A stretch of 64,000 bases of DNA, from NCBI GenBank assembly GCA_965116885.1, contig OZ220741.1, positions 2,816,001 to 2,880,000 on the forward strand, written 5' to 3'. The number at the start of each line of letters is the position of its first letter. The first letter of the stretch is position 1. Shown here piece after piece: positions 16,124 through 62,251 of this stretch. The notes under the pieces were generated by a model. It saw nothing but the letters and a program-made list of their open reading frames with translations, made no database searches and was not told the origin of the DNA. The translations under genes and the position numbers were made by a program. The DNA is from Candidatus Latescibacterota bacterium (GTDB taxonomy: Bacteria > Latescibacterota > UBA2968).

Positions 16124-17314
16124 ATGGCTGAATTTGTCGCGAATTACGATGAAGACAAGGTACCCGATTACACGTTGCCCGATCCGTTGATTTTTGAAGA
16201 TGGGACAAAGGTCGAAGATGCGGCTATGTGGCAACAACGGCGGGCAGAGATTTTGTCTTTGTTTGAATCTCAGGTGTATGGCAAGATGCTGGGTGCATCG
16301 GCGGGCATGCATTTTGAGACTCGGTTTTGGAATGGGGATGCGCTGGATGGAATTTGCAAAGAAGTTCGGGTTTACTTTTCCACAGATGCGGAGCCACAGA
16401 TGGATATTTTAATTTTTTTGCCAAAAGACGCCGATGGGCCCGTGCCGTTGTTTGTGGGATTGAATTTTGGGGGAAACCATACCGTTCATTCCGATCCCGC
16501 CATTACATTGTCCGAGCAGTGGATGCGCTCGAAGACGGAGGGGGTTTTGGACCATCGGGCGACGGAAGCAGCGCGCGGTACGGCTGCAAGCAGGTGGCCT
16601 GTGGAGAGGATTTTGGCGAGGGGCTACGGTCTGGCTACGATTTATTGCGGCGATCTGGATCCGGATTATGACGATGGGTTTCAAAATGGCTTGCATCCGC
16701 TTTTTGATAGGCGAAATACTGGGGATGACTGGGGGGCTATTGGTGCGTGGGCGTGGGGATTGATGAGGGCGATGGATTATTTTGAAAGCGATGAGGCGAT
16801 TGATCACGCGCGGGTTGCTGTGATGGGGCATTCGCGATTGGGTAAGACAGCGTTGTGGGCTGGTGCGCAAGACGAGCGGTTTGCCCTTGTGATTTCAAAT
16901 AATTCGGGTTGTGGGGGTGCCGCGCTGTCCCGCCGTCGATATGGCGAAACAGTGGGGCGGATTAATACCAGTTTTCCACACTGGTTTTGCGATAATTTTA
17001 AGCGGTATAATGAACGCGAGGACGATTTGCCCGTTGATCAGCATTTGCTCATTGCTCTGATGGCGCCTCGTCCGGTTTATGTTGCCAGTGCAGAAGAAGA
17101 CCGCTGGGCGGATCCAAAGGGGGAGTTTTTGGGCGCGAAACACGCCGATGCGGTTTATCGTTTGTTGGGAACAGATGGTCTGGGTGCTGAAAATATGCCG
17201 CGTGTTCACGAGCCGATTACGAGCCGAATTGGGTATCATATTCGCGCAGGCGGGCACGCTGTGACGGATTACGATTGGGATCGGTATATAGATTTTGCCG
17301 ATAAACACTGGTAG
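16124..17314 (+). CDS. Carbohydrate esterase family 15 (glucuronoyl esterase-like)
   Basis: CE15 nucleophile motif [35 protein letters not shown]. Confidence 0.88.
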
Positions 17315-17351
17315 TGAAGTTCGACGCGTGGTTGAACAGAAAGGAGTAGTT

Positions 17352-18404
17352 ATGACAACTCAAGCAGAACGATCTTACGCGCTTAAAGCTGTGCCGGGAT
17401 TTTATTCGTCTTATTCGGGTATTCAGATTGCGGCGCAGACGTCGGATAATGCGAGCGATGAAGATTTGCAATTTATGCAACAACTCGGCGTGGAATGGAT
17501 GATGGTCGGCGTTGACGACCAGGAGAACCAGAATGCCGATTATTATAAGGCTTTGAAAGACAGGTTTTCAAAATACGGTTTGCAGATTTATCGCATTGCC
17601 AATCGCAGTGTACACAATATGCCCGAAGTGACCCTGAATTTGCCGGGGCGCGATGAGAAGGTCGAGGAATTTATCACTTTTATTCGCAATCTGGGAGAGG
17701 CGGGTATTCCGTACAATACGTATGCACACATGGGCAATGGAATTTGGAGTTCGGGACGCATAACGCGGCGTGGGGGCATGGATGCGCGGACGCTCGATAT
17801 CGAGAATGCCACAGGGCATTGGGACGGTCAGATTTTTGAGGGCGAATTGACACATGGGCGGGTTTATAGCGAAGACGAGCTTTGGGAAAATTACGAGTAC
17901 ATGATTCGCAAGGTCGCGCCCGTTGCCGAGGAATCGGGTGTTTATATCGGCATTCATCCCGATGATCCTCCGGTGTATCCTCTGGGCGGGATTCCGCGCT
18001 GTATGTTTGGCAATTTTAAGGGGTACAAGCAGGCGATGGATATTGCGGATAGTCCAAATATCGGGGTTTGTTTGTGCGTGGGGTGCTGGCTCGAAGGGGG
18101 TAAAGAAGGCATGGGTGTGGATGTGATTGAGGCCATTCACTATTTTGCCAGCCGCAAGAAGTTGTTTAAGGTGCATTTTCGCAATGTTTCAAATCCGATG
18201 CCCGAGCCGTGGGCAGAGACTTTGATGGACGATGGGTACCAGGATATGCATGCGGTGATGAAAGCACTGCGGGAGGTGGAATTTGACGGGGCGATTATCC
18301 CCGATCATATCCCGCAGATCCTGGGAGGCCGTCGCGCTGGGGTGGCGTATTCGATTGCCTATATGCGCGCGCTGGTTCAAGCTGTGAATAACGAAGCGGG
18401 TTGA
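17352..18404 (+). CDS. uxuA: Mannonate dehydratase family protein
   Basis: IHPDDPP, VHFRNV, IPDHIP. Start at ATG 17352 after AAGGAG. Confidence 0.8.
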   Translation: MTTQAERSYALKAVPGFYSSYSGIQIAAQTSDNASDEDLQFMQQLGVEWMMVGVDDQENQNADYYKALKDRFSKYGLQIYRIANRSVHNMPEVTLNLPGRDEKVEEFITFIRNLGEAGIPYNTYAHMGNGIWSSGRITRRGGMDARTLDIENATGHWDGQIFEGELTHGRVYSEDELWENYEYMIRKVAPVAEESGVYIGIHPDDPPVYPLGGIPRCMFGNFKGYKQAMDIADSPNIGVCLCVGCWLEGGKEGMGVDVIEAIHYFASRKKLFKVHFRNVSNPMPEPWAETLMDDGYQDMHAVMKALREVEFDGAIIPDHIPQILGGRRAGVAYSIAYMRALVQAVNNEAG

Positions 18405-18410
18405 TAGGGA

Positions 18411-19871
18411 TTACGGTCCACGTTTTCCTGTCGCGATGATTGTACCGGCGGGCAATAAGGTGTCAGGTCGGTTTGGCAGGTCGTCGCCGATGCTGTGCAG
18501 CCAGGTCATGAGTCGATCGCGCAGATCGTTTTCTATGGTTGATATGTGGGGTAGCCCACTCAGGTTTTTCATTTCGTGTGGGTCGGTTTGCAGGTCGTAA
18601 AATTCGTCGATGTCTTGCGGATTCCACACGTATTTGTATCGTTCGTTGCGAATGGCGCGCACTTCAAAGCTATAACCGTTATAGCGATAGTAGGTGCCAT
18701 AGGCAATTTGCGGCCAGTCTGTGGGACGGCTTTGCGTACCGACGAGTGGGAGAAGGTTGCGTCCCTCGCGTGGTTGGTCAGGGGATGATTCGGCGCGGAT
18801 GAGAGAGAAGAGGGTTTCGCCGATGTCGAGCAATGAGACATAGGCGTCCTGGGTTGCAGGCGGTGTGTCGGGCGCGCGGATGATGAGTGGGATGCGCCAG
18901 ACTTCTTCGTAAAAATAAGCCCCTTTGTCAAATCGGTTGTGCGCGCCTTCCATGTCGCCGTGGTCAGATGTGAAGACAACGGTTGTTGATTCGGCGAGGT
19001 CGAGGCGGTCTATGGCGTCGAGAATGCGTCCGATGGCTTCATCGACCATTGTGATGTGTGCGTGGGAATAGGCGATAACGGTTTTCCATTCTTCTTCGTC
19101 GAGCGGGGAGGTGTCCATGCAACCCCACCAGGGTGTCGAATGGAAATCGGGGCGTCCCTCGCAGTTGTCGTTCAGGTTTGCAGGCAGTTCGACGCGCGTG
19201 CGGAGTTCCTGGGCGAGTTTGACGTATTCTTCGGGCAGGTGATGCGGAAAGTGTGGCGGTGCAGATGATACGGTGAGAAAGAAGGGTTTGTTTTGGTGGC
19301 TCTTAGCCCACGTTTCGAGAAATTTTACGCCTTTGTTTACGGTGGGGAAGGGTTGGATATTTTCTTTTTGTTGCGGTGAATCTCCCCAAAATGGCGCGCG
19401 TCCTTTGATGAGGTTTTGGGTTTGGTCGGCGTAGCTGGCAACGGTCTTTTCGTAGGTGTGATCATTTGTTTGTGGGTGGTATGGCTTTGAGTGTATTTCG
19501 ATATTGGGATCAAAGCCATGTGCGCCGCGTTTTTCAGGGTTGATATGCCCGAGGTGCCACTTGCCGTAGTAACCGACGTGATAGCCGAGGCGCACGGCTT
19601 CGTCAATCCAGGTTTTTTGATCGAGTGGCATGGATTCCTGGAGGGAATAGCCTACGGATTGGTTGTCGTAAACGCCATTTTGATGCGGCCAGCGAGCCGT
19701 GAGCAATGTCCCCCGGGCAGGTGTGCAGAGGGGGCAAGATGTGAAAGCATTTGTGAATACCGTGCCCTGGGATGACAGGCGGTCAATATTCGGTGTGGGG
19801 ATGTCGGCACCGAGAAAGCCAAATGCCCATGCAGGCCATTGGTCGGTGAGGATAAATAAGACGTTTTGCAT
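18411..19871 (-). CDS. Sulfatase (Cys-type)
   Basis: FILTDQ, CPLCTPAR (CxPxR), GKWH, SDHGD, YDLQTDPHE. Confidence 0.92.
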   Translation of the reverse strand: MQNVLFILTDQWPAWAFGFLGADIPTPNIDRLSSQGTVFTNAFTSCPLCTPARGTLLTARWPHQNGVYDNQSVGYSLQESMPLDQKTWIDEAVRLGYHVGYYGKWHLGHINPEKRGAHGFDPNIEIHSKPYHPQTNDHTYEKTVASYADQTQNLIKGRAPFWGDSPQQKENIQPFPTVNKGVKFLETWAKSHQNKPFFLTVSSAPPHFPHHLPEEYVKLAQELRTRVELPANLNDNCEGRPDFHSTPWWGCMDTSPLDEEEWKTVIAYSHAHITMVDEAIGRILDAIDRLDLAESTTVVFTSDHGDMEGAHNRFDKGAYFYEEVWRIPLIIRAPDTPPATQDAYVSLLDIGETLFSLIRAESSPDQPREGRNLLPLVGTQSRPTDWPQIAYGTYYRYNGYSFEVRAIRNERYKYVWNPQDIDEFYDLQTDPHEMKNLSGLPHISTIENDLRDRLMTWLHSIGDDLPNRPDTLLPAGTIIATGKRGP

Positions 19872-23961: not shown

Positions 23962-24609
23962 ATGCCGAAGTTTCTTGTCATTGGTCGGTATGTATTTTTC
24001 ATCTACTCTGCTGATGAGGTGGAGCGCGCACATATTCATGTGCGAGTCAGAGCATCGGCATTTCCTACGGCGAAGTTCTGGTTGGTTCCGGTTGTCGAGT
24101 TAGCATATAACAATGGTTTTAAGCGTAAAGAAATTTCAGATATCAGAAAATTGGCTGTGAAACACGCGCAAGAATTGTTGACAAAATGGAACGCAGAGTT
24201 TAATCAGAATCAAGCAATGGATAACGGCGAAATACGTGAAGCACTCCTGCGCGGTTATGATAAAGTGCGTTGGTTGGATGAGGCAAAGCGTTTGAAATCC
24301 CATCGTCCGTCTATTTTGGATATTCGATTCGATGAGTCACACATGCATGTTTATCTTGATGACGATCGAGGTATCTCTGTACCGTTACGGTGGTATCCGC
24401 GTTTGTACTTCGGCTCGCCCGAAGATCGGGCGGATTGGGAACTGTGGTGTCACGAAAGCGAAGATGTGTATGATGTGATTGCCTGGGAAACCCTGGATGA
24501 ACACATACGTCTTGAAAGTTTGTTGGCAGGACGAGCGAGCCGTGAAAGTGTAACATCTATACGTCGATGGTTAAAAGGGGAAAGATTGTACGAAGTATAT
24601 GATGAATAA
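23962..24609 (+). CDS. Fused DUF4160-DUF2442 toxin-antitoxin-like protein
   Basis: N-half is DUF4160-like (FFIYSADE..HIHV..AKFWL..W..F). C-half is DUF2442-like (VPLRWYPRL..R..WE..W..LDE.I.LE.LL.G). Confidence 0.75.
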   Translation: MPKFLVIGRYVFFIYSADEVERAHIHVRVRASAFPTAKFWLVPVVELAYNNGFKRKEISDIRKLAVKHAQELLTKWNAEFNQNQAMDNGEIREALLRGYDKVRWLDEAKRLKSHRPSILDIRFDESHMHVYLDDDRGISVPLRWYPRLYFGSPEDRADWELWCHESEDVYDVIAWETLDEHIRLESLLAGRASRESVTSIRRWLKGERLYEVYDE

Positions 24610-32023: not shown

Positions 32024-33115
32024 TTAGTTCTGATTAGATCGCCTGCCTCGTCCTCGGCGACGCTGTTCACGCCACCGCTGATATGCCTCTTCGTCAAACT
32101 CGATAACCGGGATCTCACCTTGCCAGGCCCTGGCAATGATAGGCATGATACGCGATGTTGCCAATTGGAAATCCCGCCCAAAAGGTCTCGGATTTGGAAA
32201 CCATTTCCACAGGAGAGCGCCTGTGATCCGCGGTTCGTTTTCAATGGCTTCGAGCGCGACGCGCCAGCACATTTCCTGCAAGGGGCGCGCGCCATCGTCA
32301 TCCACGCGATATGTCCACGGTTCTGACGCTGCTTTATAAGATTGGTTGTATCCCAATTCGGCAAATACGATGTTGCGATCCATTTTTTTTGCAAAAGTTC
32401 GCAGTTCTTTTACCAGACGATCCCATCCACTTCGGAGGTCGGTCTCTGTGGGATTTTGATTTTTTGTTATCGGAAAATAGCCCTGAATACCGATCACATC
32501 CAGGGCATCCCAGAATGGCACGCGCGTGTAATCCGTCCAATTCGCCGCATAGGTGATCTGTCCTTTATATATTTTTCGCACATCTGCAATCAGGGCGCGC
32601 CATTCGGCTTCGTGATGCAGGGTTTTGTCCAATTCTGTTCCTATGACAAATGCATCGGCGTCTTTGCAGGCTTCGGCTACGGCCAAAATCCAGGCGCGAT
32701 AATCCGCCCAGAAGCGCGTCCATTCTTCCTCAGAGCGAAATGCAATTTCACCCCGCCACTCAAATCCCGACCGCCAGTATGCCAGATGGGGCTTGATGCA
32801 AATTTTCAATCCCCGTTTGTGGGCTTCTACAATGGGCCGCGTCCAGTGTGCGGGAGCCAATTCACCGGCGCCTTCAAACCGCCTCACCCTGACCGATCCA
32901 TCCTGAGAAATGCCCGCGTAGGGATGGGTCGCCACCCAGTTTGCCCCCAATATTTCAATATCCCGCAGCGTTGAAACCATTTCGTCACTCGCCCAATCTC
33001 GCCCACCCCCATGCGTTGAAATCGTGATCCCCCGCATTGGCGTATCATTGTCAAATGCCTGGGGCTCAAACGCGGTTAATAAGCTGAATAATAGAATGGT
33101 GCAATAACGAGGCAT
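32024..33115 (-). CDS. Secreted GH113-like glycoside hydrolase
   Basis: Signal peptide, IKPH, WRGEI, IGTEL, TYAANW, FWDALD.IGI..YFP, FAELGY. Confidence 0.75.
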   Translation of the reverse strand: MPRYCTILLFSLLTAFEPQAFDNDTPMRGITISTHGGGRDWASDEMVSTLRDIEILGANWVATHPYAGISQDGSVRVRRFEGAGELAPAHWTRPIVEAHKRGLKICIKPHLAYWRSGFEWRGEIAFRSEEEWTRFWADYRAWILAVAEACKDADAFVIGTELDKTLHHEAEWRALIADVRKIYKGQITYAANWTDYTRVPFWDALDVIGIQGYFPITKNQNPTETDLRSGWDRLVKELRTFAKKMDRNIVFAELGYNQSYKAASEPWTYRVDDDGARPLQEMCWRVALEAIENEPRITGALLWKWFPNPRPFGRDFQLATSRIMPIIARAWQGEIPVIEFDEEAYQRWREQRRRGRGRRSNQN

Positions 33116-39762: not shown

Positions 39763-40326
39763 TTAGGATAGATTCTCGATGAGTGTTGCAACGGACCAAT
39801 CGCCCTCTGCGCGAATGTCCAGGGTGAATCGTTGTCCGGTATCTTTTCTGCGTTCGGCAATCACCTCTGAACCGTTGTAAAGCTGGTGCAAAAACGCCTG
39901 GAGATCGTCCTTTATGGCGTTGTGCGTGCTTTCGGTGTTGGGGGCATTGAGGCGATCGTTGAGGATGAGCCTGAGTTCATTCCCTCGAAAAGCGACCGCT
40001 TCTTCTGCTTCAAGACGCTGGCAGATTGTGCAGGCCGCGCGAACCGCTGAGGATAATTGCTGCACAAAATTACCTCCGTTGGGTTGCTTGCGGTTGTAGA
40101 GCAGGCCGCGTTTTGCGTCCGAGTCGTCAATGCTGAGGTCGTATTCGTGACCGATTAGCAGGGTCACAGGACCATTGGGTACGTGACTGTAATCGGCTAC
40201 ATCGAGTAGCACATCGGACCCATTGTGTGCTGAAATCCAGTTGTTGAAGGTTTTGAACCATGTTCCAGGCGCGATATTGTGCCCCTGGTCGAGATAAAAT
40301 TTGACACTGATTTTATGGGTTGGCAT
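39763..40326 (-). CDS. Hypothetical protein downstream of the nitrite/sulfite reductase
   Basis: Full ORF 9 bp after the reductase. Globular, with DVADYSHVPNGP and NDRLNAPN. Confidence 0.75.
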   Translation of the reverse strand: MPTHKISVKFYLDQGHNIAPGTWFKTFNNWISAHNGSDVLLDVADYSHVPNGPVTLLIGHEYDLSIDDSDAKRGLLYNRKQPNGGNFVQQLSSAVRAACTICQRLEAEEAVAFRGNELRLILNDRLNAPNTESTHNAIKDDLQAFLHQLYNGSEVIAERRKDTGQRFTLDIRAEGDWSVATLIENLS

Positions 40327-40335
40327 AATTACCTT

Positions 40336-42564
40336 TCACACCACATTCATTTGACCATAACAGGCATAGGCTTCTTCGATGAAGAGTTGGGCTTCTTCGA
40401 CGACCTGGTGGGCAATGTCGCGGGTGTATTCGGCGACTTCCTCTTCGTGAACGCGGAAGAGATAATTGGCAAATTTTGCGCCGGCAAACTGATTGTAGAA
40501 CAACTCGGTATCGCAAAAGCGCGTGCGAAATTCTTCGACGATGACATCGGCCTCTTCTGGTACGTCGAGAAACTGCGTTTTGACCAGTGCTTTGGCGGCG
40601 TGCAACATGGCGCCGAAAGCCGTTTTGTACGCAGCTTCGTAGTCGCCTTCCTCCAGGTAAATCTGCGATTCAAAGGATTCGGTTTCGCAGCCGGACAGTT
40701 CAAATTGCACCAGTGAAACCACTTCGCCAGCGCATTCGCCTTTGCCCATATCGCCGAGTGTAAATTCCCGCGTGTCGCCCCAGTCTGTATAGTAGGAGGG
40801 ATCTATTTCGTGCATGGGAACCTGCGTGAGGCCCTGAAGGAGGTCTTTGACGTCTTTTTTCCCGATGCGCTGAATATAGGCCTGGAAGCTTTCGTCTTTT
40901 TCGCGGTTTTCAACATAATTACCGGTGATGCGTTCGATGACGTCCGGAATATTTTTTGAGGGAATAGCGCCCATGGCCAGGCCGTAAGAGGCCGCATTTT
41001 CGGTCCATTGTCCGCCGAGAACGACCTGGAAGTGCGGCACGGTATAGCCATTGATTTTTCGGCTGTTGCCGTAAAAACCGAGATCGGCTACGTGGTGTTG
41101 CCCGCAGGAGTTAAAACATCCGCTAATTTTGATGCGGAAGTTTTTGATGGCGTCGTCGAGTTGGAGGTTCTGTTGCGCCAATTGCGTGCGCAATTCCGCA
41201 GCGAGACCGCGCGATGAGGAAATGCCCAATTTGCAGGTGTCGGTGCCCGGGCAGGCGGTGACATCCACGATGGTGCCAGCCCCGGGTTCTGCTAATTCCA
41301 GTTCACAGAGATCATTGTAGAGGGAAACGACATCGGATTCGCTGACCCATCGAAGGATGATGTTTTGCTCGACGGTGGCGCGAATGGTGTCTTTGACGTA
41401 TTTGCGCGCGATATCGGCCAGATTTCGCATCTGGTCGGATGTGATATCTCCCAGAGGCAGACATATTGTTGCGACCACATAGCCTTCTTGCCGCTGTTTG
41501 TAGATGTTGGTTTCTGCCCAGGCGTCAAATTCTTTGGGGCGCGCAACCCCATTGAGGGGAGCAGCGATTTTAAGGGGTTCTTCTACGTAGCTGTCCAGGT
41601 TGTCGAGATAGGCTGTCCACGCGGGGTCTTCGGGCATGATTTTGCGTTCTTCTTCGACCAGGCGAATAAATTCTTCGATGCCGAGCTTGGCGACGAGGAA
41701 TTTGATGCGTGCACGGGCGCGATTTGTTTTTTCGCCCAGGCGGGCAAACACGCGGCATATTGCCTGCGCTGTGGGCAAGAGTTCTTCGGGAGGCAGAAAT
41801 TCCGAGTAGAGTTTGGCCTGGTGGGGCACGGCTCCCAAGCCACCGCCGACGTAGGTTTCGAACCCGCGTTTGCCGTCTTTGATGCGCGCGATCATGCCCA
41901 TGTCGTGCATGCTGGTCAAACCGCAGGCTTCCTGGGCGCATCCGGAAAAGGCGATTTTGAATTTGCGACCAAAGTCCTGACAGTCGGGGTGTCCGAGAAG
42001 GAATTGGGCAAGGGCATGGGAATACGGCGTGACATCGAATGTTTCGGTGTGACACACGCCCGAAAGCGGACAGGCGGTGACATTGCGGATGGAGTTTCCG
42101 CAGGCTTCTCGGGTGGTAATGCCCACGGCGGCGAGGCGGCGCATGAGGTCGGGTGTGTCTTCGATGTGTATGTAGTGGATTTGAACATCCTGGCGCGTGG
42201 TGATGTGCAAAATGCCGTCAGAATATTCTTCGGCTATGTCGGCCAACACATCCATTTGGTCGGTGGTAAGACCGCCATAAGGGATTTTGATGCGCTGCAT
42301 ACCCGGCGCATCCCAGACCGTGTCTGGTCCTTTGAGGAGGTCGTCGCTGGGATAGTTGAGTGGTTTGGTTACCTGGCCGTCAAAGCGCTGTCCATTGTCG
42401 TAGCGCTGGCCGTAAACACCGCGGCGAAGACGGGTTTCTGCAAAGACGCGGTCGTCAATTTGTCCCTGTTTTTTTTGTTCGATCTGCGCTTCAAACGTAT
42501 CGATTTCAGCACCTATATCTTCCGGGATCAAATCGCTTAATTCTTCTTTCCAATTTGTGGCCAT
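40336..42564 (-). CRISPR. NOT a CRISPR - see the CDS entry with identical coordinates
   Basis: Entry made in error. No CRISPR repeats are present here. Confidence 0.
40336..42564 (-). CDS. Ferredoxin-dependent nitrite/sulfite reductase (siroheme) with helical C-terminal extension
   Basis: RLRRGVYGQR, TTRQDVQ, RKFKIAFSGC, and siroheme/4Fe-4S ligands ACPGTDTC...SGCFNSCGQH. Confidence 0.9.
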   Translation of the reverse strand: MATNWKEELSDLIPEDIGAEIDTFEAQIEQKKQGQIDDRVFAETRLRRGVYGQRYDNGQRFDGQVTKPLNYPSDDLLKGPDTVWDAPGMQRIKIPYGGLTTDQMDVLADIAEEYSDGILHITTRQDVQIHYIHIEDTPDLMRRLAAVGITTREACGNSIRNVTACPLSGVCHTETFDVTPYSHALAQFLLGHPDCQDFGRKFKIAFSGCAQEACGLTSMHDMGMIARIKDGKRGFETYVGGGLGAVPHQAKLYSEFLPPEELLPTAQAICRVFARLGEKTNRARARIKFLVAKLGIEEFIRLVEEERKIMPEDPAWTAYLDNLDSYVEEPLKIAAPLNGVARPKEFDAWAETNIYKQRQEGYVVATICLPLGDITSDQMRNLADIARKYVKDTIRATVEQNIILRWVSESDVVSLYNDLCELELAEPGAGTIVDVTACPGTDTCKLGISSSRGLAAELRTQLAQQNLQLDDAIKNFRIKISGCFNSCGQHHVADLGFYGNSRKINGYTVPHFQVVLGGQWTENAASYGLAMGAIPSKNIPDVIERITGNYVENREKDESFQAYIQRIGKKDVKDLLQGLTQVPMHEIDPSYYTDWGDTREFTLGDMGKGECAGEVVSLVQFELSGCETESFESQIYLEEGDYEAAYKTAFGAMLHAAKALVKTQFLDVPEEADVIVEEFRTRFCDTELFYNQFAGAKFANYLFRVHEEEVAEYTRDIAHQVVEEAQLFIEEAYACYGQMNVV

Positions 42565-48970: not shown

Positions 48971-50098
48971 ATGCTGAGTTTACACGGTGAAAAAATTGTT
49001 CGAATTGAAAAAGTGATTATGAAATTTAAGCGTCCCCGCCTGATCGGGCGCAATGCGCGGATTGGCGTTCACGGAGATATGGTGACGGATCCCGTGGTTC
49101 GCATCCACACAAATAGTGGTGCTGTTGGCGTTGGGTGGTCGCGGTTGAGACAGGAAGAAGCCGAATCATTGGTGGGCAAAAGCATTGGGGATGTGTTCCA
49201 GTTGCCGGGGGGATCAAACGAAGTTGGAACGGCGATTGATTTGCCTTTGTGGGATCTGGCGGCCAAATTATCGGATCAGCCGTTGTACAAACTTTTAGGT
49301 GCTCGGGGATCTCGGGCGGTCGAGTTGTACGATGGCTCGGTTTATATCGACGATCTGGATGCTTCGGATGAGGAGGCTGTGGAGATATTCCGGGACGAAG
49401 TGAAGACCGGGCACGATTATGGGTATAAAAATTTTAAAATTAAAATTGGTCGCGGCGCGCGCTGGATGCCCGTTACAGAGGGTACGGATCGGGATGTGCT
49501 GGTTATTCACAGTGTTCGGGAAGCCGCTGGCGCAGATGCGAAGATACTCGTCGATGCGAATAATGGCACGACGCTCAATATTGCAAAAGATATTCTCGAG
49601 CGCTGTGAAGATGTGGGGATTTACTGGTTTGAAGAACCGTTTCCAGAAGATAGGGCTTTTAACGAGGATTTTAAGCAGTTTATCGTTGAGAAAGGATACG
49701 ATACGCTCGTCGCTGATGGGGAATCGGGTCCTCCGCCACCCAGCTATTTTGATATGGTCAAAAAGGGATGGATCGATGTGGTGCAACACGATTTTCGCGC
49801 TAAGGGTCTTACGTGGTGGCGCGAGACTGCCGCGATGATCGAACCGTGGGGAGGCCAATGTGCGCCTCATTGCTGGGGCAGCTTGATCGAGCGCTATGCC
49901 CACGCGCATTTTGCCGCTTCGGTCCCCCATTTTTCTCTTCAAGAAGCCGCTCCCGCAGATATGCCGGGCATTGTGCTGGATGGCTGGACGATGCAGGACG
50001 GATGTTTGATGGTGCCAGATACGCCGGGCACGGGGTTTGACCTCGAGGCAGATGTGATTGAAGAGGGCGTGAAGTGGGAAGATGGGTTCAGGGTGTAA
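48971..50098 (+). CDS. Mandelate racemase/muconate lactonizing enzyme (enolase superfamily)
   Basis: LWDL.AK, KIKIG, VDAN, WFEEP, DGES, APH.W, PGTG. Confidence 0.88.
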   Translation: MLSLHGEKIVRIEKVIMKFKRPRLIGRNARIGVHGDMVTDPVVRIHTNSGAVGVGWSRLRQEEAESLVGKSIGDVFQLPGGSNEVGTAIDLPLWDLAAKLSDQPLYKLLGARGSRAVELYDGSVYIDDLDASDEEAVEIFRDEVKTGHDYGYKNFKIKIGRGARWMPVTEGTDRDVLVIHSVREAAGADAKILVDANNGTTLNIAKDILERCEDVGIYWFEEPFPEDRAFNEDFKQFIVEKGYDTLVADGESGPPPPSYFDMVKKGWIDVVQHDFRAKGLTWWRETAAMIEPWGGQCAPHCWGSLIERYAHAHFAASVPHFSLQEAAPADMPGIVLDGWTMQDGCLMVPDTPGTGFDLEADVIEEGVKWEDGFRV

Positions 50099-50111
50099 TG
50101 GAGATAATAAT

Positions 50112-51149
50112 ATGGATATGACATTTCCTGGCGCAGAATGGGAGACGAGACCGCCCGGTGATCTCGGCTTTGACGCGGAGAAGCTCGCGCGGGTGCAGAG
50201 GTGGTTGCGCGAGGTGGCGGATGACAGGTCCTTTCAGGTGGGGATTGCGCGTTATGGGTATCTCACTGCAGAGTGGCGGCAAGGTGTTGCGGCTGATTCT
50301 TCGCACTCACAGGCGTCTGCCGCTAAGTCGTATTATTCGACGCTTCTGGGTATTATAGTGGCGAAGGGCAAGCTATCTTCGCCGGATGAAAGAGTCGTCG
50401 ATTACTATCCTGAGATGATGGATGTGGGCGAGCAGGAGGGTCCAAAGCCCGGGCGGTATGCGTTTGAGAAAGATCGCGATATTACCTTTCGGCATTTGAT
50501 ATGCAATGTGTCGGGTTATATGAAGCCGGGGGAGAAACCGGGCGAGGTTTTTCACTATCAGACTTATGGGATGAATATTCTGACCCATGCAATGGCTAAA
50601 ATTTATGGGTGTTACGATGCAGATGATCCCGAGGGTTTGCCGGGATGTGGGAAGGTGATCGAAGAAAAGTTACGCGATCCCATTGGCGGGACCTGGACGC
50701 ATTCGCATTCCAATTTTGATCTGTGGCCCAGTGCGCGGTTAAATATCTTCGGGTATTACACGCAGGTGCATACCACATTGCGCGATCAACTGCGGGTGGG
50801 GCATTTGTGGGGCAATTACGGCAATTGGAATGGGGTTCAGGTTGCGCCGGAAAGTTATTTGCGCGAGGCAACGGTGACGAATGATTTTATTCTGGAAAAC
50901 GAACCTGAAGAGAATTGGAAATACGGTCACGGATTCTGGTGCAATGATCGCGGGATGCAGTGGGCAGATGCACCGAGGGATTCTTTTGCCGCATCGGGCG
51001 CTGGTGCGAAGCATATATGGATGTGCCCGCGATTGGGTTTGGTCATTGCGCAAAATCCAGGTCTGTGGGATCAGTTCAGGGAAGAGCAGGATAAGGTCGG
51101 GAGCCAGAATGAGGTGATTGCGCGAGTTGTGAATGCGGTAAAGGAATAG
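50112..51149 (+). CDS. Serine hydrolase (beta-lactamase/class C-like)
   Basis: SAAK (SxxK), ITFRHL, PGEVFHY, YGHGFW, ASGAG. Confidence 0.8.
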   Translation: MDMTFPGAEWETRPPGDLGFDAEKLARVQRWLREVADDRSFQVGIARYGYLTAEWRQGVAADSSHSQASAAKSYYSTLLGIIVAKGKLSSPDERVVDYYPEMMDVGEQEGPKPGRYAFEKDRDITFRHLICNVSGYMKPGEKPGEVFHYQTYGMNILTHAMAKIYGCYDADDPEGLPGCGKVIEEKLRDPIGGTWTHSHSNFDLWPSARLNIFGYYTQVHTTLRDQLRVGHLWGNYGNWNGVQVAPESYLREATVTNDFILENEPEENWKYGHGFWCNDRGMQWADAPRDSFAASGAGAKHIWMCPRLGLVIAQNPGLWDQFREEQDKVGSQNEVIARVVNAVKE

Positions 51150-51162
51150 GGAGGATATATAG

Positions 51163-52485
51163 ATGGATGCAAAAACCAAAAAATTGCAGGTGGATCAGGC
51201 TGTGAAATCGCAGTCGCGGCGGGCGTTTAAGCTGTCGCGGCGTATTCACGGCTGGGCAGAGCGGCCGTTTCGGGAATACGAGTCGTCGAAGGCGTTGGCG
51301 GCGTATTTGGAGGAGAACGGATTTCAAATTGAATTTCCGTGGAAAAATATCCCGACGGCTTTTCGCGCTATATGGGGCACGGGCAAACCCTCTATTGGCA
51401 TGTTGGGGGAGTACGACGCATTGCCCAATTGCGGTGCCGAGGAGGGCACCTGGGGCCACGGCTGAGGTCATAATCTTTTGGGCGTTGCCCCGGCCGCAGG
51501 TGCGGTTGCTGCAAAGACAGTATTGGAAAATTTGAAATCATCCGGCCAGATTATTTATTACGGCTGTCCGGCCGAAGAGACGCTGGCGGGTAAGGTGTAT
51601 ATGGCCCGCGATGGCGCGTTTCGAGATCTGGATGCGGTGCTGGCATGGCATCCGGGATCGGGTACAGGTGTTAGCAATTATGGCGGTTCGTCGCTGGATT
51701 CTCTGGTGTATGAGTTTTTTGGCAAGACGTCTCACGGCGCGAGTGCTCACAATGGGCGCAGTGCATTGGACGGGGTGATGTTGATGGATGTTGCGGCGAA
51801 TTATTTGCGCGAGCACGTTCCCGAAAATGTGCGTATCCACTGCGTGATTCGGGATGGCGGGGATGCGCCCAATGTGGTGCCGGCTTATGCGAAGGTGTGG
51901 TACTATGTGCGGGGGAAGGATCGCGAACAGGTGAATAAAGTACGCAAGCGATTGACCAAATGCGCCAAAGGTGCGGCGATGGCCACGGAAACGACTATGA
52001 AATGGCATCGTATCACGGCTGTGTACCCGCGTTTGCCAAATGATGTGATGTGCGAAACTGTGCGTCAAAATCTCGAATTATTCGGTCCGCCGCGTGCTTC
52101 TAAAAAAGATAAGGAACGCGTAAAGGAATTGGGATACAAAGGTGAATTTGACGGGAAGATCAAAAAGGGGAAGGGTTCACAGGGGCGCGGGTCTTCGGAT
52201 GAAGATAATGTGTCATGGCTGGCACCGATGGGGCGGTTTCAGATGGTGTGTTATACAAAGGGCACGCCGGGTCATCACCGCGATACGACCGCACAGGCAG
52301 TAATGCCTTTTGCCGAGCGCGCGATTTTGCAAACGGCCAAGGTGTTTGCGGGGTCGGCTCTTGATCTGATTTTGGACAACAAGGTGTTGCAAGCAGCGCG
52401 TGCGGAATTTAAGAAGGGAACAAAGGAGTTTGAGTACGATCCGCTGATTCCGAAGCGCCAGAAGGTTCCCGTGGATCCTCCATAG
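51163..52485 (+). CDS. M20D/AbgB-like amidohydrolase with in-frame UGA (putative selenocysteine at codon 101)
   Basis: ORFs 51163-51465 and 51478-52485 are in the same frame, separated only by TGA 51463-51465. Joined, they read EYDAL...GHG[U]GHNLLG...GCPAEE...WHP...GRSALD...NYLREH...PNVVP...GSSD, 440 aa. Confidence 0.85.
51484..51514 (+). promoter_or_regulatory. Putative bacterial SECIS hairpin
   Basis: TTGC-CCC-GGCCGC-AGGT-GCGGTT-GCT-GCAA. The apical loop AGGU lies 32 nt 3' of the UGA. Confidence 0.6.
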
Positions 52486-52498: not shown

Positions 52499-53491
52499 TT
52501 GAAAACACAAAGATTAATATGCACAGATGTCCGGCGGATTGAATTAGAGGACGTTGATTTGCCGCGTGTGCCAGACAATGGCATTTTGGTGCAGAATGAT
52601 TATACTGCCGTGAGTGTGGGTACGGAAATTTACAATTATGCACACGGGGGTGAACCGTCGCGTGCGAGGACATTTCCGCGGCCAACGGGATATTGCAATA
52701 CGGGTGTGGTGCTCGAGGTGGGCAAAGATGTGAAGGGGATAGAACCCGGTGATCGCATTGCTGCGCAGGGCAATCACGCCAGTCATGCCGTTTTGAGCGG
52801 GAATTTTCTCAAGACTCCCGAAGGTGTTTCGCCCAGGTCCGCGGCTTTTATGGTTATGTGTGCGATTGCCATGCACGGGCATCGGGTTGGACGTCCGGAG
52901 TTGGGCGAGGTTGTTGCAATTACCGGTATGGGTATTGTGGGCCAGTTAGCAGCGACCTTTGCGCGGTTGGCTGGCGCGCTTCCGGTTATTGCGATTGATC
53001 TGGATGATTTTCGGTTGGGTAAGGCGAGAGATCGGGGGGCAGATGTTTGTGTCAATCCCAGTACTACAGAGGATGTCGCCGAGGTGGTGCGCGAGCATTG
53101 CGTGGGCGATGGTGTCGATCTGGTTATTGAAGCAACGGGTATTCCAGCGGTTTATCCCATGGCGCTGACTTTACCCCGGTTGGGTGGCCGTCTGGTCGCG
53201 TTGGGGTCTCCGCGCGGTACCGTAGAAGTGAGTTTTTTGCCCGAGGTTCACTTGCGCGAGATCACAATTCTGGGCGCACATCAGCCCAAGACGCCGGATA
53301 ATGACCATATTTATTATCCGTGGAGCAAGCACAGAGATCGCGAGCTAATTTTGCGTTTGATGGCTGCGGGCAAGTTGCCCATCGAAGATTTGATTACCCA
53401 TGTTGTCAATCCCGTCGATTGTCAGGCTACCTACGACATGCTCGCCGATAATCCCAGAGAAGCGTTAGGCGTGGTATTTGAGTGGAGGTGA
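52499..53491 (+). CDS. Zinc-binding (MDR) dehydrogenase family
   Basis: VSVGTE, GY...G.V, GMGIVG, VIEATG, LITH. Confidence 0.85.
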   Translation: MKTQRLICTDVRRIELEDVDLPRVPDNGILVQNDYTAVSVGTEIYNYAHGGEPSRARTFPRPTGYCNTGVVLEVGKDVKGIEPGDRIAAQGNHASHAVLSGNFLKTPEGVSPRSAAFMVMCAIAMHGHRVGRPELGEVVAITGMGIVGQLAATFARLAGALPVIAIDLDDFRLGKARDRGADVCVNPSTTEDVAEVVREHCVGDGVDLVIEATGIPAVYPMALTLPRLGGRLVALGSPRGTVEVSFLPEVHLREITILGAHQPKTPDNDHIYYPWSKHRDRELILRLMAAGKLPIEDLITHVVNPVDCQATYDMLADNPREALGVVFEWR

Positions 53492-55126: not shown

Positions 55127-56494
55127 ATGCCGCAGACAGATCGACCCAATATCTTGTTTATTATGGACGACCAGCATCGTTTTGATTATATGGGCTGTGC
55201 AGGTGCTGATTTTGTTCGCACGCCCAATATTGACCGCCTGGCAAAGCAGGGGGTGCATTTTACCCAATGCACGACAAATTGCCCTGTTTGTGCGCCTTCG
55301 CGCATTGCTCTGGCTTCTGGGATGCAGCCCTCGCGCCTCGGTTGCGTTGGGAACAATTGCTTTTTGCCTCGCAGCCAACCGACTTATTACCAGCAATTGC
55401 GCGATTACAATTATTACGTGGGGTGTGTGGGCAAGCTCGATCTGGCCAAACCCGACGGGTACAATGGACGCGATGGCGATAGGCCCGCTACGTATATGTG
55501 GGGTTTTACACATCCGGTTGAATGCGAGGGCAAAATGCACGCTGGACATTCCAAAACACCGCAGGGACCTTATAACCACTTTTTGGAGGAAAGAGGGTTG
55601 CTCGGTGCTTTTGTCGATGATTATACCCGTCGCTCCAGAGAGGGGTATCACGCTTCCTGTCACGATTCGGTCTTGCCTACCGAAGCTTTTGAGGATGTGT
55701 ATATCGGGCAGCGATCTGTTGAATGGATTGAGAATATTCCCGGGGATTTTCCCTGGCATTTATTTGTGAGCTTTGTGGGGCCTCACGATCCTTTTGATCC
55801 GCCAGCGGAATATGGAGAGAAGTACCGCGATGCAGAGATGCCACCCGCCACGCCTGCAAATTTGCCGGGTAAACCCGCTTACTTAAAAGATCGCATCAAA
55901 GACATGACCCCGGAAAAAATCGCGGAGACACGGCGACAATATTGCGCGGCCATTGAAGTTATTGACGATCAGATCGGCGAGATGCTCGCGGCAGTGGAAC
56001 GGCGGGGGATGGCCGATAATACGTATGTCATCTTTTCCAGCGATCACGGAGAAATGCTGGGCGATCACGGTTTGTACACCAAAAGCGTGCCTTACGAAGC
56101 ATCGGTACACGTTCCGCTCATTATTGCGGGGCCTGGGATTGAAGGCGGTCGCGTCTCTGATGCTCTCGTTGAACTCATTGACATGAATCCAACGATATGT
56201 GATCTTGCTGGCGTGCCTCCGCTTTCGGATATCGATGCGCGGTCAGTTGGCGCAGTGCTTCGCGGAGAGGCAGAGGAACACCGTACGGAAACCGTGAGTG
56301 GCATACAAAATTTCAGGTGCATCCGCACGCGGGAGTACAAATTGGTGGAGAACTACAACGATGTTGCGGAACTCTACGATCTGATCGCAGATCCGACAGA
56401 AGAACACAATATTGCCGAACAGGAGCCAGAGGTACGGCGCGAATTGTCTCGCCGTCTCTCAGCGCGTTATTTAGAAGGCACATGGTATCGGTAG
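55127..56494 (+). CDS. Sulfatase (Cys-type, choline-sulfatase-like)
   Basis: PNILFIMDDQHR, CPVCAPSR, GPHDPF, SDHGEMLGDHG, LYDL..DP.E. Confidence 0.92.
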   Translation: MPQTDRPNILFIMDDQHRFDYMGCAGADFVRTPNIDRLAKQGVHFTQCTTNCPVCAPSRIALASGMQPSRLGCVGNNCFLPRSQPTYYQQLRDYNYYVGCVGKLDLAKPDGYNGRDGDRPATYMWGFTHPVECEGKMHAGHSKTPQGPYNHFLEERGLLGAFVDDYTRRSREGYHASCHDSVLPTEAFEDVYIGQRSVEWIENIPGDFPWHLFVSFVGPHDPFDPPAEYGEKYRDAEMPPATPANLPGKPAYLKDRIKDMTPEKIAETRRQYCAAIEVIDDQIGEMLAAVERRGMADNTYVIFSSDHGEMLGDHGLYTKSVPYEASVHVPLIIAGPGIEGGRVSDALVELIDMNPTICDLAGVPPLSDIDARSVGAVLRGEAEEHRTETVSGIQNFRCIRTREYKLVENYNDVAELYDLIADPTEEHNIAEQEPEVRRELSRRLSARYLEGTWYR

Positions 56495-60802: not shown

Positions 60803-62251
60803 TCACCAGGTCATATAATGCGTCACAGGTTCGCCCTGTTTGGCAGTAAAGCGATCGTATTTCGGATGGATGAAATCTTCGGTTGCATCCATGTGGGCGT
60901 AAAAAGCTCGCGTCATCTCTTCTCTTTTTTCCGGTTGGGTGTCATATAAATTGTTTAGTTCAAAGGGATCGTCGATTAGATTGTACAACTCGCCGTAATT
61001 TTTTGCCGGATAGTGAATATATTTCCATTCCCGCGTGCGGATGCAGCGTTTATCGACTGCTTCGGCAAAGATTATGTCTCGTATTTCCGATTGTTCGCCA
61101 TTTATTAGCGGCGATAAATCCAGGCCCTGCACGCATTCGGGCGCATCAAAACCCGATAGCCGCGCGATTGTGGGAAATAGATCTACGGTTTCGATCAGGG
61201 CGTCACAGTCGCTGCCAGCATGACCGGGTATGGCGATAAAGCAAGGTATGTGTAACATGCAGTCGAGGAGAAATGGCGCTTTGGCCGGGATACCGTGATC
61301 GCCTAAAAATTCACCGTGGTCCGATAGAAAGATCACGATGGTCTCATCCGCCACGCCTTTTTTTTCCAATGTTTCAAGGATTAGCCCTACTTGATGGTCA
61401 ATTTGCGAGACCATGCCGTAATACGCCGCCTTCATTTTGCGAAATGTGTCGTCGGAAGCCCGGTCAAATCCGCGGTATTTGTGGTGTTCTGCTTTGAAAT
61501 ACAAACTGTATTCGGGCGGTTTTTTTGCAATGTCGTTATCCGCGCGCCGAAAGGAGGGCATCGCGTTGGGATCGTACATATTTGCAAAGCGCCCAGAAGG
61601 GACATAGGGATGGTGCGGCCCGTAGAATCCCACCCATAAGAAAAAGGGGTTGCTCGTATCCAGTCCTTCGAGGTATTCAATGCTTTTCATTCCCACATAG
61701 GCATCGATGTGGCAATCTTCGGGGAGACCGGATGGCACGGCGCCGAGGTTTTTGCGAAAATTGGGCAGGGCGTATCCCGTTTTATACTCGTATCCCTGGT
61801 CGCGAACATATTGTTCAAATGGATTGGGATCGGTGACTGTATAATTTCCATCTGCGCGCTCTTTCCATCCCCGCCGTATTCCCACGGCGTCCATGTGATC
61901 GAGTATCTGTCGAAAACGCTGCTGCCCAATGCCGTGTTTGCCCACGCTGGCGGTTGTATAGCCCTGGTTTTTGAACGCTTCTACCATTGTAATTTCATTT
62001 TCGTTGAGCTTTGATCCATTCCATTTTACGCCGTGATTTTTGGGATAACGCCCGGTCATGAATGTCGCACGCGACGGAGAACACACGGGATTTTGCACAA
62101 AGCATTTTGAAAATCGCATGCTCCTTTCAGATAGGGCGTCAATCGCAGGCGTTTGTATGACGCGGTCCCCCGTGTATCCCAGCGTATCGTATCGCAAATG
62201 GTCTGTTGTTATAAATACAATATTGGGTCGTTTCATCATTGCATACCTCAT
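60803..62251 (-). CDS. Sulfatase (Cys-type)
   Basis: PNIVFITTDH.R, NPVCSPSR, GKH, GPHHP, SDHGEFLGDHG. The exact start Met is uncertain. Confidence 0.92.
   Translation of the reverse strand: MRYAMMKRPNIVFITTDHLRYDTLGYTGDRVIQTPAIDALSERSMRFSKCFVQNPVCSPSRATFMTGRYPKNHGVKWNGSKLNENEITMVEAFKNQGYTTASVGKHGIGQQRFRQILDHMDAVGIRRGWKERADGNYTVTDPNPFEQYVRDQGYEYKTGYALPNFRKNLGAVPSGLPEDCHIDAYVGMKSIEYLEGLDTSNPFFLWVGFYGPHHPYVPSGRFANMYDPNAMPSFRRADNDIAKKPPEYSLYFKAEHHKYRGFDRASDDTFRKMKAAYYGMVSQIDHQVGLILETLEKKGVADETIVIFLSDHGEFLGDHGIPAKAPFLLDCMLHIPCFIAIPGHAGSDCDALIETVDLFPTIARLSGFDAPECVQGLDLSPLINGEQSEIRDIIFAEAVDKRCIRTREWKYIHYPAKNYGELYNLIDDPFELNNLYDTQPEKREEMTRAFYAHMDATEDFIHPKYDRFTAKQGEPVTHYMTW

What the first reader, a model, noticed from the sequence alone, without database searches (positions are those of the whole stretch)
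51163..52485. Candidate selenoprotein metallohydrolase: M20D/AbgB amidohydrolase with UGA at the metal-binding Cys
Seen in sequence: one continuous 440-codon frame with a single internal stop, TGA 51463-51465, in the context TWGHG-TGA-GHNLLG. There is no frameshift, the other M20 motifs look intact (EYDAL, PAEE, WHP, GRSALD, NYLREH), and the gene sits tightly in an operon with a good RBS. Established: AbgB/HmrA-type M20D enzymes have GHGCGHN or HACGH here, where the Cys and His ligate the di-metal centre. Sec is encoded by UGA at positions where homologs have a functional Cys, and most characterised bacterial selenoproteins are oxidoreductases. Inference: this is a Sec-containing amidohydrolase with selenolate as a metal ligand in a hydrolytic site, which pipelines would mis-call as a pseudogene or two fragments. 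I do not recall this as an established selenoprotein family but cannot confirm novelty.
Basis: partly seen in the sequence, partly recalled or inferred. Interest (0 to 1): 0.88.

Follow-up and report, generated by a model that had tools for sequence, protein, structure and literature searches.

The report
Selenocysteine-containing M20D amidohydrolase gene
This is an intact metal-dependent amide-cleaving enzyme gene in which the cysteine that normally holds the two catalytic metal ions is encoded by a UGA "stop" codon, almost certainly read as selenocysteine, a use of selenium that does not appear in the published lists of bacterial selenoproteins I could check.

Summary
Window 51163-52485(+) is one 440-codon frame with a single in-frame TGA at 51463-51465, in TWGHG-U-GHNLLG.

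The TGA is not an error or a private mutation. The same codon is TGA in 51 of 79 related loci from different species-level genomes, mostly Latescibacterota MAGs at 97-70% protein identity. It is TGC (Cys) in the other 28.

Evidence that the gene is intact and recoded:
- Both halves are under purifying selection (dN/dS 0.06-0.18).
- In the TGA forms only, synonymous sites are frozen over codons +6 to +13, where two hairpins form; the second has an RGGU loop, as expected of a bacterial SECIS.
- TGA is otherwise a normal terminator here, ending 18 of 40 genes.

The protein is an M20D amidohydrolase closest to HmrA and PM20D2. The U aligns with the Cys of their H-x-C-G-H motif.

Gene callers split it into 100-aa and about 335-aa fragments. 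No M20 or hydrolase family appears in a 2026 inventory of 119 prokaryotic selenoprotein families.

Still open: selABCD/tRNA-Sec in the genome, and any biochemical proof.

The parts
51163..52485 (+). Complete coding sequence of the Sec-type M20D amidohydrolase (440 residues with U101; stop TAG 52483-52485)
   Evidence: frame. TIGR01891 at 194.5 bits against a cut-off of 153.75. PF07687; model pLDDT 95.4, TM 0.83/0.93 to HmrA 3RAM.
51463..51465 (+). In-frame UGA, proposed selenocysteine codon (residue 101), aligned with the Cys of the GH(G/A)CGHN motif
   Evidence: TGA at the same codon in 51 of 79 loci and TGC in 28 of 79. Aligned to Cys of HmrA, PM20D2, ILL2 and 4EWT.
51480..51490 (+). Hairpin 1 of the putative SECIS: GGGC-GUU-GCCC, loop starting 18 nt after the UGA
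   Evidence: All 4 pairs form in 52 of 52 TGA forms against 4 of 29 TGC forms. All 4 pairs are invariant, so there is no covariation.
51491..51508 (+). Hairpin 2 of the putative SECIS: 7-bp stem with apical loop AGGU (51498-51501), loop starting 32 nt after the UGA
   Evidence: 7 of 7 pairs form in 51 of 52 TGA forms against 3 of 29 TGC forms. Loops are AGGU 35, GGGU 16, GGGC 1. One pair shows G-C/G-U/A-U variation, with one A-C break (L022).
51149..51154 (+). Shine-Dalgarno-like GGGAGG, 8 nt upstream of the ATG
   Evidence: Read directly.
48971..50098 (+). Conserved neighbour: enolase-superfamily (MR_MLE_C) gene, closest to acid-sugar dehydratases but far below every cut-off
   Evidence: A homologue lies next to the M20D gene in 36 of 51 TGA loci and 0 of 28 TGC loci.
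50082..51149 (+). Upstream neighbour: beta-lactamase-fold serine hydrolase-like gene
   Evidence: PF00144, 8.4e-13. Conserved in 17 of 51 TGA loci.
52499..53491 (+). Conserved neighbour: Zn-dependent dehydrogenase-like gene
   Evidence: Present near the M20D gene in 40 of 51 TGA loci and 0 of 28 TGC loci.

Best explanation
The gene encodes a full-length M20D-family metal-dependent amidohydrolase or dipeptidase of the HmrA/PM20D2 subgroup. Codon 101, UGA, is recoded co-translationally to selenocysteine. A SECIS-type stem-loop pair lies within the coding sequence, 15-43 nt downstream of the UGA, and would recruit a SelB-type elongation factor carrying Sec-tRNA(Sec). The Sec replaces the Cys of the H-x-C-G-H motif. 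In M20D enzymes that Cys ligates, and in CsAga bridges, the two catalytic metal ions, so the active site would hold a selenolate-ligated di-metal centre that activates water for amide hydrolysis. Shown here: the conserved UGA/Cys pairing, the intact and selected frame, the conserved RNA element, and family and fold membership. Inferred: that the inserted residue is Sec, that it binds the metals, and the substrate. The gene lies in a catabolic cluster with an enolase-superfamily enzyme, a Zn-dehydrogenase and a second peptidase-like hydrolase, so the likely substrate is a dipeptide or N-acyl amino acid. The Sec state most likely arose once from Cys in a Latescibacterota lineage, with a few reversions to Cys.
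For: (1) TGA is at the Cys column in the window and in 51 of 79 loci from different species-level genomes (protein identity 97-70%). TGC is there in the other 28, and no other codon occurs.
(2) All 52 TGA forms keep an open 100-codon N-part and a 336-340-codon C-part (48 of 52: 340). dN/dS is 0.10-0.18 (N) and 0.06-0.11 (C) for the 4 of 17 pairs where dS was not saturated. In the other 13 pairs dS is saturated while dN stays at 0.12-0.32.
(3) In the TGA group, synonymous codon entropy is 0-0.4 at codons +6 to +13. The same codons in the TGC group score 1.2-1.7, and the gene-wide median is 1.22. The 12 lowest of 306 14-codon windows all start at codons -2 to +9.
(4) That stretch folds into a 4-bp and a 7-bp hairpin. 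The second has an RGGU (once GGGC) apical loop, and 99.8% of cells are paired. Full pairing occurs in 52/52 and 51/52 TGA forms against 4/29 and 3/29 TGC forms. A small apical loop containing G is the stated hallmark of bacterial SECIS (PMC1088965, passage seen).
(5) TGA is a normal terminator in this genome: it ends 18 of 40 genes, and there is no other in-frame TGA.
(6) No conserved restart codon follows the TGA. The first in-frame ATG/GTG/TTG is at +5 in 23 forms, +11 in 14, +4 in 3, +20 in 1, and absent within 21 codons in 11 of 52.
(7) Family and fold: TIGR01891 scores above its cut-off. HmrA 3RAM gives E 3.8e-41, or 1.2e-60 with a profile. The AF2 model has pLDDT 95.4 and TM 0.83/0.93, rmsd 1.9 A, to 3RAM.
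(8) C101, H103, E138, E139, H163 and H371 are invariant in 103 aligned homologues. The Cys column aligns with GHACGHN of HmrA and PM20D2 and HACGHD of ILL2 and 4EWT. [quoted passage not shown]
(9) In the tree, all 52 Sec rows fall in one 57-row group nested among Cys forms, with a minimum of 4 state changes.
Against: No selA, selB, selD or tRNA-Sec was seen, but only the 64-kb window and 52 loci of about 13 kb were scanned for tRNAs, and no whole genome was available.
Covariation support for the hairpins is weak. 9 of 11 pairs never vary, 1 pair has a compensatory change (3 sequences), and 24 of 500 shuffles reach the observed score.
The window's own 68 nt are not more stable than shuffles (z = 0.48). 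Nothing in Rfam matches.
The stretch encodes G-V-A-P-A-A-G-A-V, whose GC-rich codons pair partly by themselves: 10 of 29 TGC forms make 6 of 7 pairs and 3 of 29 make 7 of 7.
The TGA forms are essentially one clade, so the 51 loci are not 51 independent events.
The metal-ligand role of the Cys rests on one review sentence about CsAga plus my recollection for HmrA, Sapep and ILL2. The HmrA paper was not held.
There is no biochemical evidence of selenium in this protein.
Confidence: 0.85

Rival explanations
1. The UGA is recoded, but to cysteine or another standard residue rather than Sec. Possible routes are a SelB/SECIS-dependent tRNA charged with Cys, or hairpin-stimulated near-cognate read-through. 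The product would then be an ordinary Cys-type M20D enzyme made at low, regulated yield.
For: The conserved UGA, hairpins and intact frame show recoding, not which residue is inserted. No Sec machinery could be examined. Cys is fully functional at this site in relatives at up to 82% identity. That natural UGA-to-Cys recoding by Sec-like tRNAs exists is recalled, not from a call.
Against: UGA aligned with Cys plus a G-containing apical-loop hairpin at SECIS distance is the standard signature used to call bacterial selenoproteins (PMC1088965 and PMC2398784, passages seen). Keeping a costly UGA for more than saturating synonymous divergence is hard to explain if plain Cys would do, since a single TGA-to-TGC/TGT change is available and was taken in only a few lineages.
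Confidence: 0.06
2. Translation really stops at the UGA. The locus would make a 100-aa N-terminal peptide and, by re-initiation, a C-terminal protein of about 335 aa (a split enzyme). Alternatively only one piece is functional, and the hairpins serve coupling or regulation.
For: Gene callers predict exactly these two pieces in many genomes. A TTG lies 5 codons after the TGA in the window and in 23 of 52 forms.
Against: There is no conserved restart codon: none within 21 codons in 11 of 52 forms, and positions vary in the rest. The break falls inside the invariant GHG-x-GHN metal-binding motif and would delete the ligand residue. Both parts are under purifying selection and fold as one M20D domain pair, with pLDDT 91-97 across the junction. 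TGC homologues are single polypeptides.
Confidence: 0.05
3. The TGA is a sequencing or assembly error, a recent nonsense mutation (pseudogene), or a sign of a genome-wide TGA reassignment.
For: A single-base TGC/TGT-to-TGA change would produce it. Nothing else supports this reading.
Against: The same TGA occurs in 51 other species-level genomes, many of them long-read complete chromosomes. dN/dS is far below 1 on both sides. TGA ends 18 of 40 genes in the window, and no other gene has an internal TGA.
Confidence: 0.01

Closest known systems
HmrA of Staphylococcus aureus (PDB 3RAM), M20D metallopeptidase/carboxydipeptidase
   Same: It is the best sequence and fold match. E is 3.8e-41, or 1.2e-60 with a profile, and TM is 0.83/0.93 with rmsd 1.9 A. 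It shares the GH(A/G)CGHN and GCPAEE motifs and the M20 dimerisation domain.
   Different: HmrA has Cys where this protein has UGA. Identity is only about 27%. HmrA sits in an operon with the ligase LdmS (PMC9486568, passages seen), whereas this gene lies with enolase-superfamily and Zn-dehydrogenase genes.
Human PM20D2 (beta-alanyl-lysine / Xaa-Arg dipeptidase; PDB 7YH4, 8XZC)
   Same: It is the second-best match, with E 7e-37 and TM 0.78-0.87. It carries the same GHACGHN motif at the U position.
   Different: It is a eukaryotic Cys form. Its substrate is known, whereas the substrate here is not.
   Same: It belongs to the same M20D superfamily. JGI names many homologues 'aminobenzoyl-glutamate utilization protein B'.
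   Different: The solved AbgB-like protein 3IO1 is a weak match (E 1.8e-5, TM 0.60). No abgA- or abgT-type neighbour was seen in the window annotation. The AbgB name is therefore a loose automatic label.
Bacterial selenoproteins with an intragenic SECIS in which Sec ligates a catalytic metal (formate dehydrogenase Mo/W-Se; [NiFeSe] hydrogenase Ni-Se)
   Same: The features in common are an in-frame UGA aligned with Cys in homologues, a stem-loop just downstream with G in a small apical loop, and Sec as a direct metal ligand (review PMC13188914, section 7 read).
   Different: Those enzymes are redox enzymes. Here the metal centre is that of a hydrolase. No peptidase, amidase, acylase or hydrolase appears among the 119 families in that review's Table 1.

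Membership tests
M20D (ILR1/HmrA-type) amidohydrolases | Match to the family HMM above the curated cut-off | tested here: met
   TIGR01891 'amidohydrolases' scores 194.5 bits against a cut-off of 153.75 and covers residues 24-379. PF07687 M20_dimer scores 31.5 bits against 21. PF01546 itself did not reach E 0.001 for this sequence.
M20D (ILR1/HmrA-type) amidohydrolases | Two-domain M20 fold (catalytic plus dimerisation domain) | tested here: met
   The AF2 model has mean pLDDT 95.4 and pTM 0.92. Foldseek gives 3RAM TM 0.83/0.93 and rmsd 1.9 A, with PM20D2, CsAga 6SLF, 4EWT, ILL2 and YxeP next.
M20D (ILR1/HmrA-type) amidohydrolases | Conserved metal-ligand set (Cys and His of H-x-C-G-H, Glu of PAEE, two further His); the list of ligands is recalled | tested here: met
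   C101 (U in the window), H103, E138/E139, H163 and H371 are invariant in 103 homologues. The motif aligns with HmrA, PM20D2, ILL2 and 4EWT. The position itself is Sec rather than Cys.
M20D (ILR1/HmrA-type) amidohydrolases | Metal-dependent amide or peptide hydrolysis | not testable with these tools
   This needs expression and assay.
Bacterial selenoprotein (SelB/SECIS-dependent) | In-frame UGA aligned with Cys in homologues and conserved across species | tested here: met
   TGA is in the window and in 51 of 79 loci, and TGC in 28 of 79. An all-against-all scan of the window plus 79 loci found only this site with clean U/C pairing.
Bacterial selenoprotein (SelB/SECIS-dependent) | Coding sequence intact and selected on both sides of the UGA | tested here: met
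   dN/dS is 0.10-0.18 for the N-part and 0.06-0.11 for the C-part.
Bacterial selenoprotein (SelB/SECIS-dependent) | Stem-loop just downstream of the UGA with a small apical loop containing G | tested here: met
   Two invariant hairpins are present, with loops GUU (18 nt after the UGA) and RGGU (32 nt after). They are frozen at synonymous sites only in TGA forms. Covariation is weak, and which hairpin binds SelB is unknown. The usual spacing range is recalled.
Bacterial selenoprotein (SelB/SECIS-dependent) | selA, selB, selC (tRNA-Sec) and selD present in the genome | not testable with these tools
   No tRNA was found in the window or in 52 loci, and no sel-type family among 44 annotated window genes.
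Bacterial selenoprotein (SelB/SECIS-dependent) | Selenium shown in the protein | not testable with these tools
   This needs 75Se labelling or mass spectrometry.
AbgB (PABA-Glu hydrolase subunit B) | Close similarity to AbgB and an abgA/abgT context | tested here: not met
   3IO1 gives only E 1.8e-5. No AbgB-specific NCBIfam model matched. The neighbours are enolase-superfamily, serine-hydrolase-like and Zn-dehydrogenase genes.

The most novel reading that the evidence does not exclude
This would be the first natural selenoenzyme that is a hydrolase. A selenolate would replace the bridging thiolate of a di-metal (Zn/Mn/Co) M20D centre, so selenium serves non-redox Lewis-acid catalysis. Possible benefits are tuning of metal affinity or selectivity, or protection of the ligand from irreversible oxidation. 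The trait would have been fixed and maintained across a whole clade of Latescibacterota, making this a new selenoprotein family absent from current inventories.
Probability: 0.6. Interest if true: 0.82.

Novelty: new member of a known kind. Interest (0 to 1): 0.74.

Why it matters
Nearly all known selenoproteins are oxidoreductases, and the 2026 inventory says most uncharacterised ones are presumed redox proteins (PMC13188914, section 7). A Sec that ligates the metals of a hydrolytic centre would widen what selenium is used for in enzymes. It also offers a natural Sec/Cys pair, with relatives at up to 82% identity, for asking what selenium buys at a metal site.

There are two further practical points:
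- It would show that Latescibacterota, an uncultured phylum, use the 21st amino acid.
- It exposes a systematic annotation error: hundreds of database entries split this gene into a 'hypothetical protein' and a truncated peptidase.

Tried and rejected
- Rfam scan of the window: 0 matches. This is uninformative for an intragenic bacterial SECIS.
- Single-sequence fold of the 68 nt after the UGA: not more stable than shuffles (z = 0.48). The evidence for the element comes from comparison instead.
- tRNA scans of the window and of 52 loci: none found.
- Read-through (TGA=U) ORF list of the window. The other single-TGA fusions, 6813-9410(-) and 39763-42564(-), join unrelated families or have their own ATG just after the stop, so they were rejected as selenoproteins.
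- All-against-all Sec/Cys scan of the window plus 79 loci. Only the M20D site is clean; the rest are out-of-frame noise among near-identical loci.
- PDB profile search with alignment A1 lost the N-terminal part, because more than half the rows were truncated. It was redone with A3.
- Literature. No paper was found that links selenocysteine with M20, amidohydrolase, AbgB, HmrA or PM20D2, or with Latescibacteria selenoproteins. The C. avium hit and PMC8318568 were irrelevant.
- The HmrA structure paper was not held.
- No complex-prediction job was sent, because no claim here rests on protein-protein binding.

Full report
**Observation.** Window 51163-52485(+) is one continuous 440-codon frame that ends in TAG. 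Its single internal stop is TGA at 51463-51465 (codon 101), in the context TWGHG-TGA-GHNLLG. A GGGAGG lies 8 nt upstream of the ATG. The flanking genes end 13 nt before the ORF and start 13 nt after it. Under table 11 the frame appears as a 100-aa ORF and a 335-aa ORF.

**What the protein is.** Read through, the protein matches NCBIfam TIGR01891 'amidohydrolase' above its cut-off (194.5 against 153.75 bits) and Pfam M20_dimer.
- The nearest solved relatives are S. aureus HmrA (3RAM, E 3.8e-41) and human PM20D2 (E about 7e-37). ILL2, 4EWT, YxeP, CsAga and the AbgB-like 3IO1 are much weaker.
- With a 103-sequence profile, HmrA reaches E 1.2e-60.
- An AlphaFold2 model built on that alignment has mean pLDDT 95.4. 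It superposes on HmrA with TM 0.83/0.93 and rmsd 1.9 A.
- The UGA column aligns with the Cys of GHACGHN in HmrA and PM20D2 and of HACGHD in ILL2 and 4EWT.
- C101, H103, E138, E139, H163 and H371 are invariant in 103 homologues.
[quoted passage not shown] That the equivalent Cys is a ligand in HmrA, Sapep and ILL2 is my recollection, because the HmrA paper was not held.

The 'AbgB' label is a loose automatic name. The family is M20D, HmrA/PM20D2 subgroup.

**Is the TGA real and conserved?** A protein search returned full-length 440-aa homologues with Cys at this column, at 82% identity and below. It also returned 17 of the best 120 clusters as forms of about 294-336 aa lacking the N-terminal part; most start within 20 residues after the column, and one starts 47 residues after it. 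A search among shorter proteins returned 22 of the best 120 as exactly 100-aa N-terminal pieces. Some of these are named 'hypothetical protein [Candidatus Latescibacteria bacterium]'.

The DNA settles the question. 79 loci were fetched from species-representative genomes.
- The codon is TGA in 51 loci: 39 labelled Latescibacterota or Latescibacteria, 7 Gemmatimonadota, 1 Planctomycetota and 4 unclassified. Their protein identity to the window is 97-70%.
- The codon is TGC in 28 loci: Planctomycetota, Verrucomicrobiota, Kiritimatiellota, Lentisphaerota, one unclassified and one Latescibacterota, L047.
- All 52 TGA forms keep an open 100-codon N-part and a 336-340-codon C-part (48 of 52: 340).
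- For the 4 of 17 window-locus pairs with unsaturated dS, dN/dS is 0.10-0.18 upstream and 0.06-0.11 downstream. In the other 13 pairs synonymous sites are saturated while dN remains 0.12-0.32.

The TGA has therefore been kept, with both halves under purifying selection, for longer than it takes synonymous sites to saturate. An error, a private mutation and a pseudogene are all excluded. TGA ends 18 of 40 Pfam-supported genes in the window, and no other gene has an internal TGA. The code is therefore not reassigned.

**The recoding signal.** In the TGA group the codons for G-V-A-P-A-A-G-A (codons +6 to +13) show almost no synonymous variation (entropy 0-0.4). Neighbouring four-fold codons in the same sequences score 1.5-1.8, the same codons in the TGC group score 1.2-1.7, and the gene-wide median is 1.22. 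The 12 lowest of 306 sliding windows all lie at codons -2 to +9.

The frozen stretch, GGGCGUUGCCCCGGCCGYRGGUGCGGUYG, folds into two hairpins:
- a 4-bp hairpin with loop GUU, at window 51480-51490;
- a 7-bp hairpin with loop RGGU, at 51491-51508.

Full pairing occurs in 52/52 and 51/52 TGA forms against 4/29 and 3/29 TGC forms. The second loop is AGGU in 35 forms, GGGU in 16 and GGGC in 1. A small apical loop containing G, just downstream of the UGA, is the stated hallmark of bacterial SECIS elements (PMC1088965, passage). The usual UGA-to-loop spacing range and the E. coli fdhF comparison are recalled.

There are caveats.
- 9 of 11 pairs never vary, only one pair shows a compensatory change (G-C, G-U, A-U, with one A-C break), and 24 of 500 shuffles reach the observed covariation.
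- The window's own 68 nt are no more stable than shuffles.
- Because the peptide is Ala/Gly-rich, 10 of 29 TGC forms can already make 6 of the 7 pairs.

The case for a functional RNA element therefore rests on synonymous-site freezing specific to TGA forms, not on covariation.

**Against a split gene.** The first in-frame ATG/GTG/TTG after the TGA is not conserved. It is at +5 in 23 forms, +11 in 14, +4 in 3, +20 in 1, and absent within 21 codons in 11 of 52. The break would also fall inside the invariant metal-binding motif.

**Evolution.** The tree held 128 rows: 52 Sec, 28 Cys loci with one extra paralogue, and 47 Cys database proteins. It used the quick LG+G4 setting with SH-aLRT support only. 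All Sec rows fall in one 57-row group (support 87, not starred) nested among Cys forms. Five Cys proteins lie inside that group (P0002/3, P0004, P0014/15). At least 4 state changes are needed, and 3 are forced by starred branches. The simplest reading is one Cys-to-Sec change followed by a few reversions. The root is not inferred, and the DNA of those five Cys proteins could not be inspected. The 51 loci are thus not independent origins.

**Context.** In the window the gene lies in a same-strand run: enolase-superfamily (MR_MLE_C, nearest to acid-sugar dehydratases but far below cut-offs), beta-lactamase-fold hydrolase, Sec-M20D, Zn-dehydrogenase, esterase, RraA-like, sulfatase, aldo-keto reductase.
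- Homologues of the enolase-superfamily gene accompany the TGA form in 36 of 51 loci, and homologues of the Zn-dehydrogenase gene in 40 of 51. Neither accompanies any of the 28 TGC loci.
- In more distant TGA loci such as L033, an Iso_dh-family dehydrogenase and an M19 dipeptidase flank the gene instead.

This suggests a catabolic cluster for a peptide-like or N-acylated compound. The substrate is unknown.

**Sec machinery.** This could not be tested. No tRNA was found in the window or in 52 loci. No sel-type family appears among 44 annotated window genes. No second selenoprotein turned up in about 1 Mb of fetched DNA. No paper linking Latescibacteria to selenocysteine use was found.

**Novelty.** The 2026 review 'Recent advances in exploring the composition and evolution of the prokaryotic selenoproteome' (PMC13188914) tabulates 119 families or subfamilies. 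I read section 7, parts 1-2, including the whole of Table 1. I also searched its text for peptidase, hydrolase, acylase, amidase, M20, TIGR01891 and PF01546 anywhere in a word. There were no occurrences.

Term searches in three further papers found no M20-type entry: the deep-Sep paper, the GOS paper (whose only proteases are trypsin-like and MucD-like serine proteases) and Haft's preprint. Their supplements were not examined. NCBIfam release 20.0 has no selenoprotein-specific model for this protein. Full-text searches combining selenoprotein or selenocysteine with M20, amidohydrolase, AbgB, HmrA, PM20D2, metallopeptidase or zinc ligand found nothing relevant.

I therefore rate it a new selenoprotein family. 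The recoding mechanism is of a known kind, and the enzyme family is known. The unusual feature is that Sec sits at a hydrolytic di-metal site rather than a redox site.

**Verdict.** My confidence that this is a genuine Sec-decoded M20D enzyme is about 0.85. What remains is the genome-level check for selABCD and direct biochemical proof.

Noticed in passing
window 51163-52485 and loci L001-L079: None of the 52 TGA (Sec) forms uses TGA as its true terminator (all TAA or TAG), whereas 11 of 29 TGC forms do. TGA also ends 18 of 40 genes in the window. This may reflect avoidance of a second UGA in a SelB-read message, or simply shared ancestry.
   Followed up: partly
L047:4629-4700: L047 is the only Latescibacterota-labelled locus with TGC. 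It still has GGTGGGTGCGGTC, the 3' half and loop of hairpin 2, with one stem-breaking change. This could be a SECIS remnant after a Sec-to-Cys reversion, or it could follow from the conserved peptide.
   Followed up: no
loci L025, L026, L030, L031, L036, L037, L048, L054: These TGA-bearing loci are labelled Gemmatimonadota or Planctomycetota, yet they sit inside the Latescibacterota Sec clade with the same neighbours. The cause could be mislabelled MAGs or horizontal transfer.
   Followed up: no
window 39763-42564 (-): A 742-aa nitrite/sulfite-reductase-like gene ends in TGA. It is followed in the same frame, 9 nt later, by a 187-aa ORF with no Pfam family and its own ATG (MPTHK...). I judged these to be two genes, not a selenoprotein.
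   Followed up: partly
window 6813-9410 (-): An amidohydrolase/dihydroorotase-like gene and a LarA_N-like gene lie in one frame, separated by a TGA and 24 nt. They belong to unrelated families, so I took them as two genes.
   Followed up: partly
window 16124-19871, 32024-33115, 55127-56494, 60803-62251: The window holds three sulfatases, a glucuronyl-esterase-like protein, a UxuA-like dehydratase and a GH113 glycosidase. This is a sulfated-polysaccharide degradation repertoire.
   Followed up: no
window 23962-24609 (+): A single 215-aa ORF combines DUF4160 and DUF2442, two small domains that I recall usually occurring as adjacent separate genes. Here they appear fused.
   Followed up: no
window 13709-15697 (-) and 10699-13701 (-): A DUF6785/DUF6784 membrane-type protein lies next to a 1000-aa PD40 beta-propeller protein. 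Its function is unknown.
   Followed up: no
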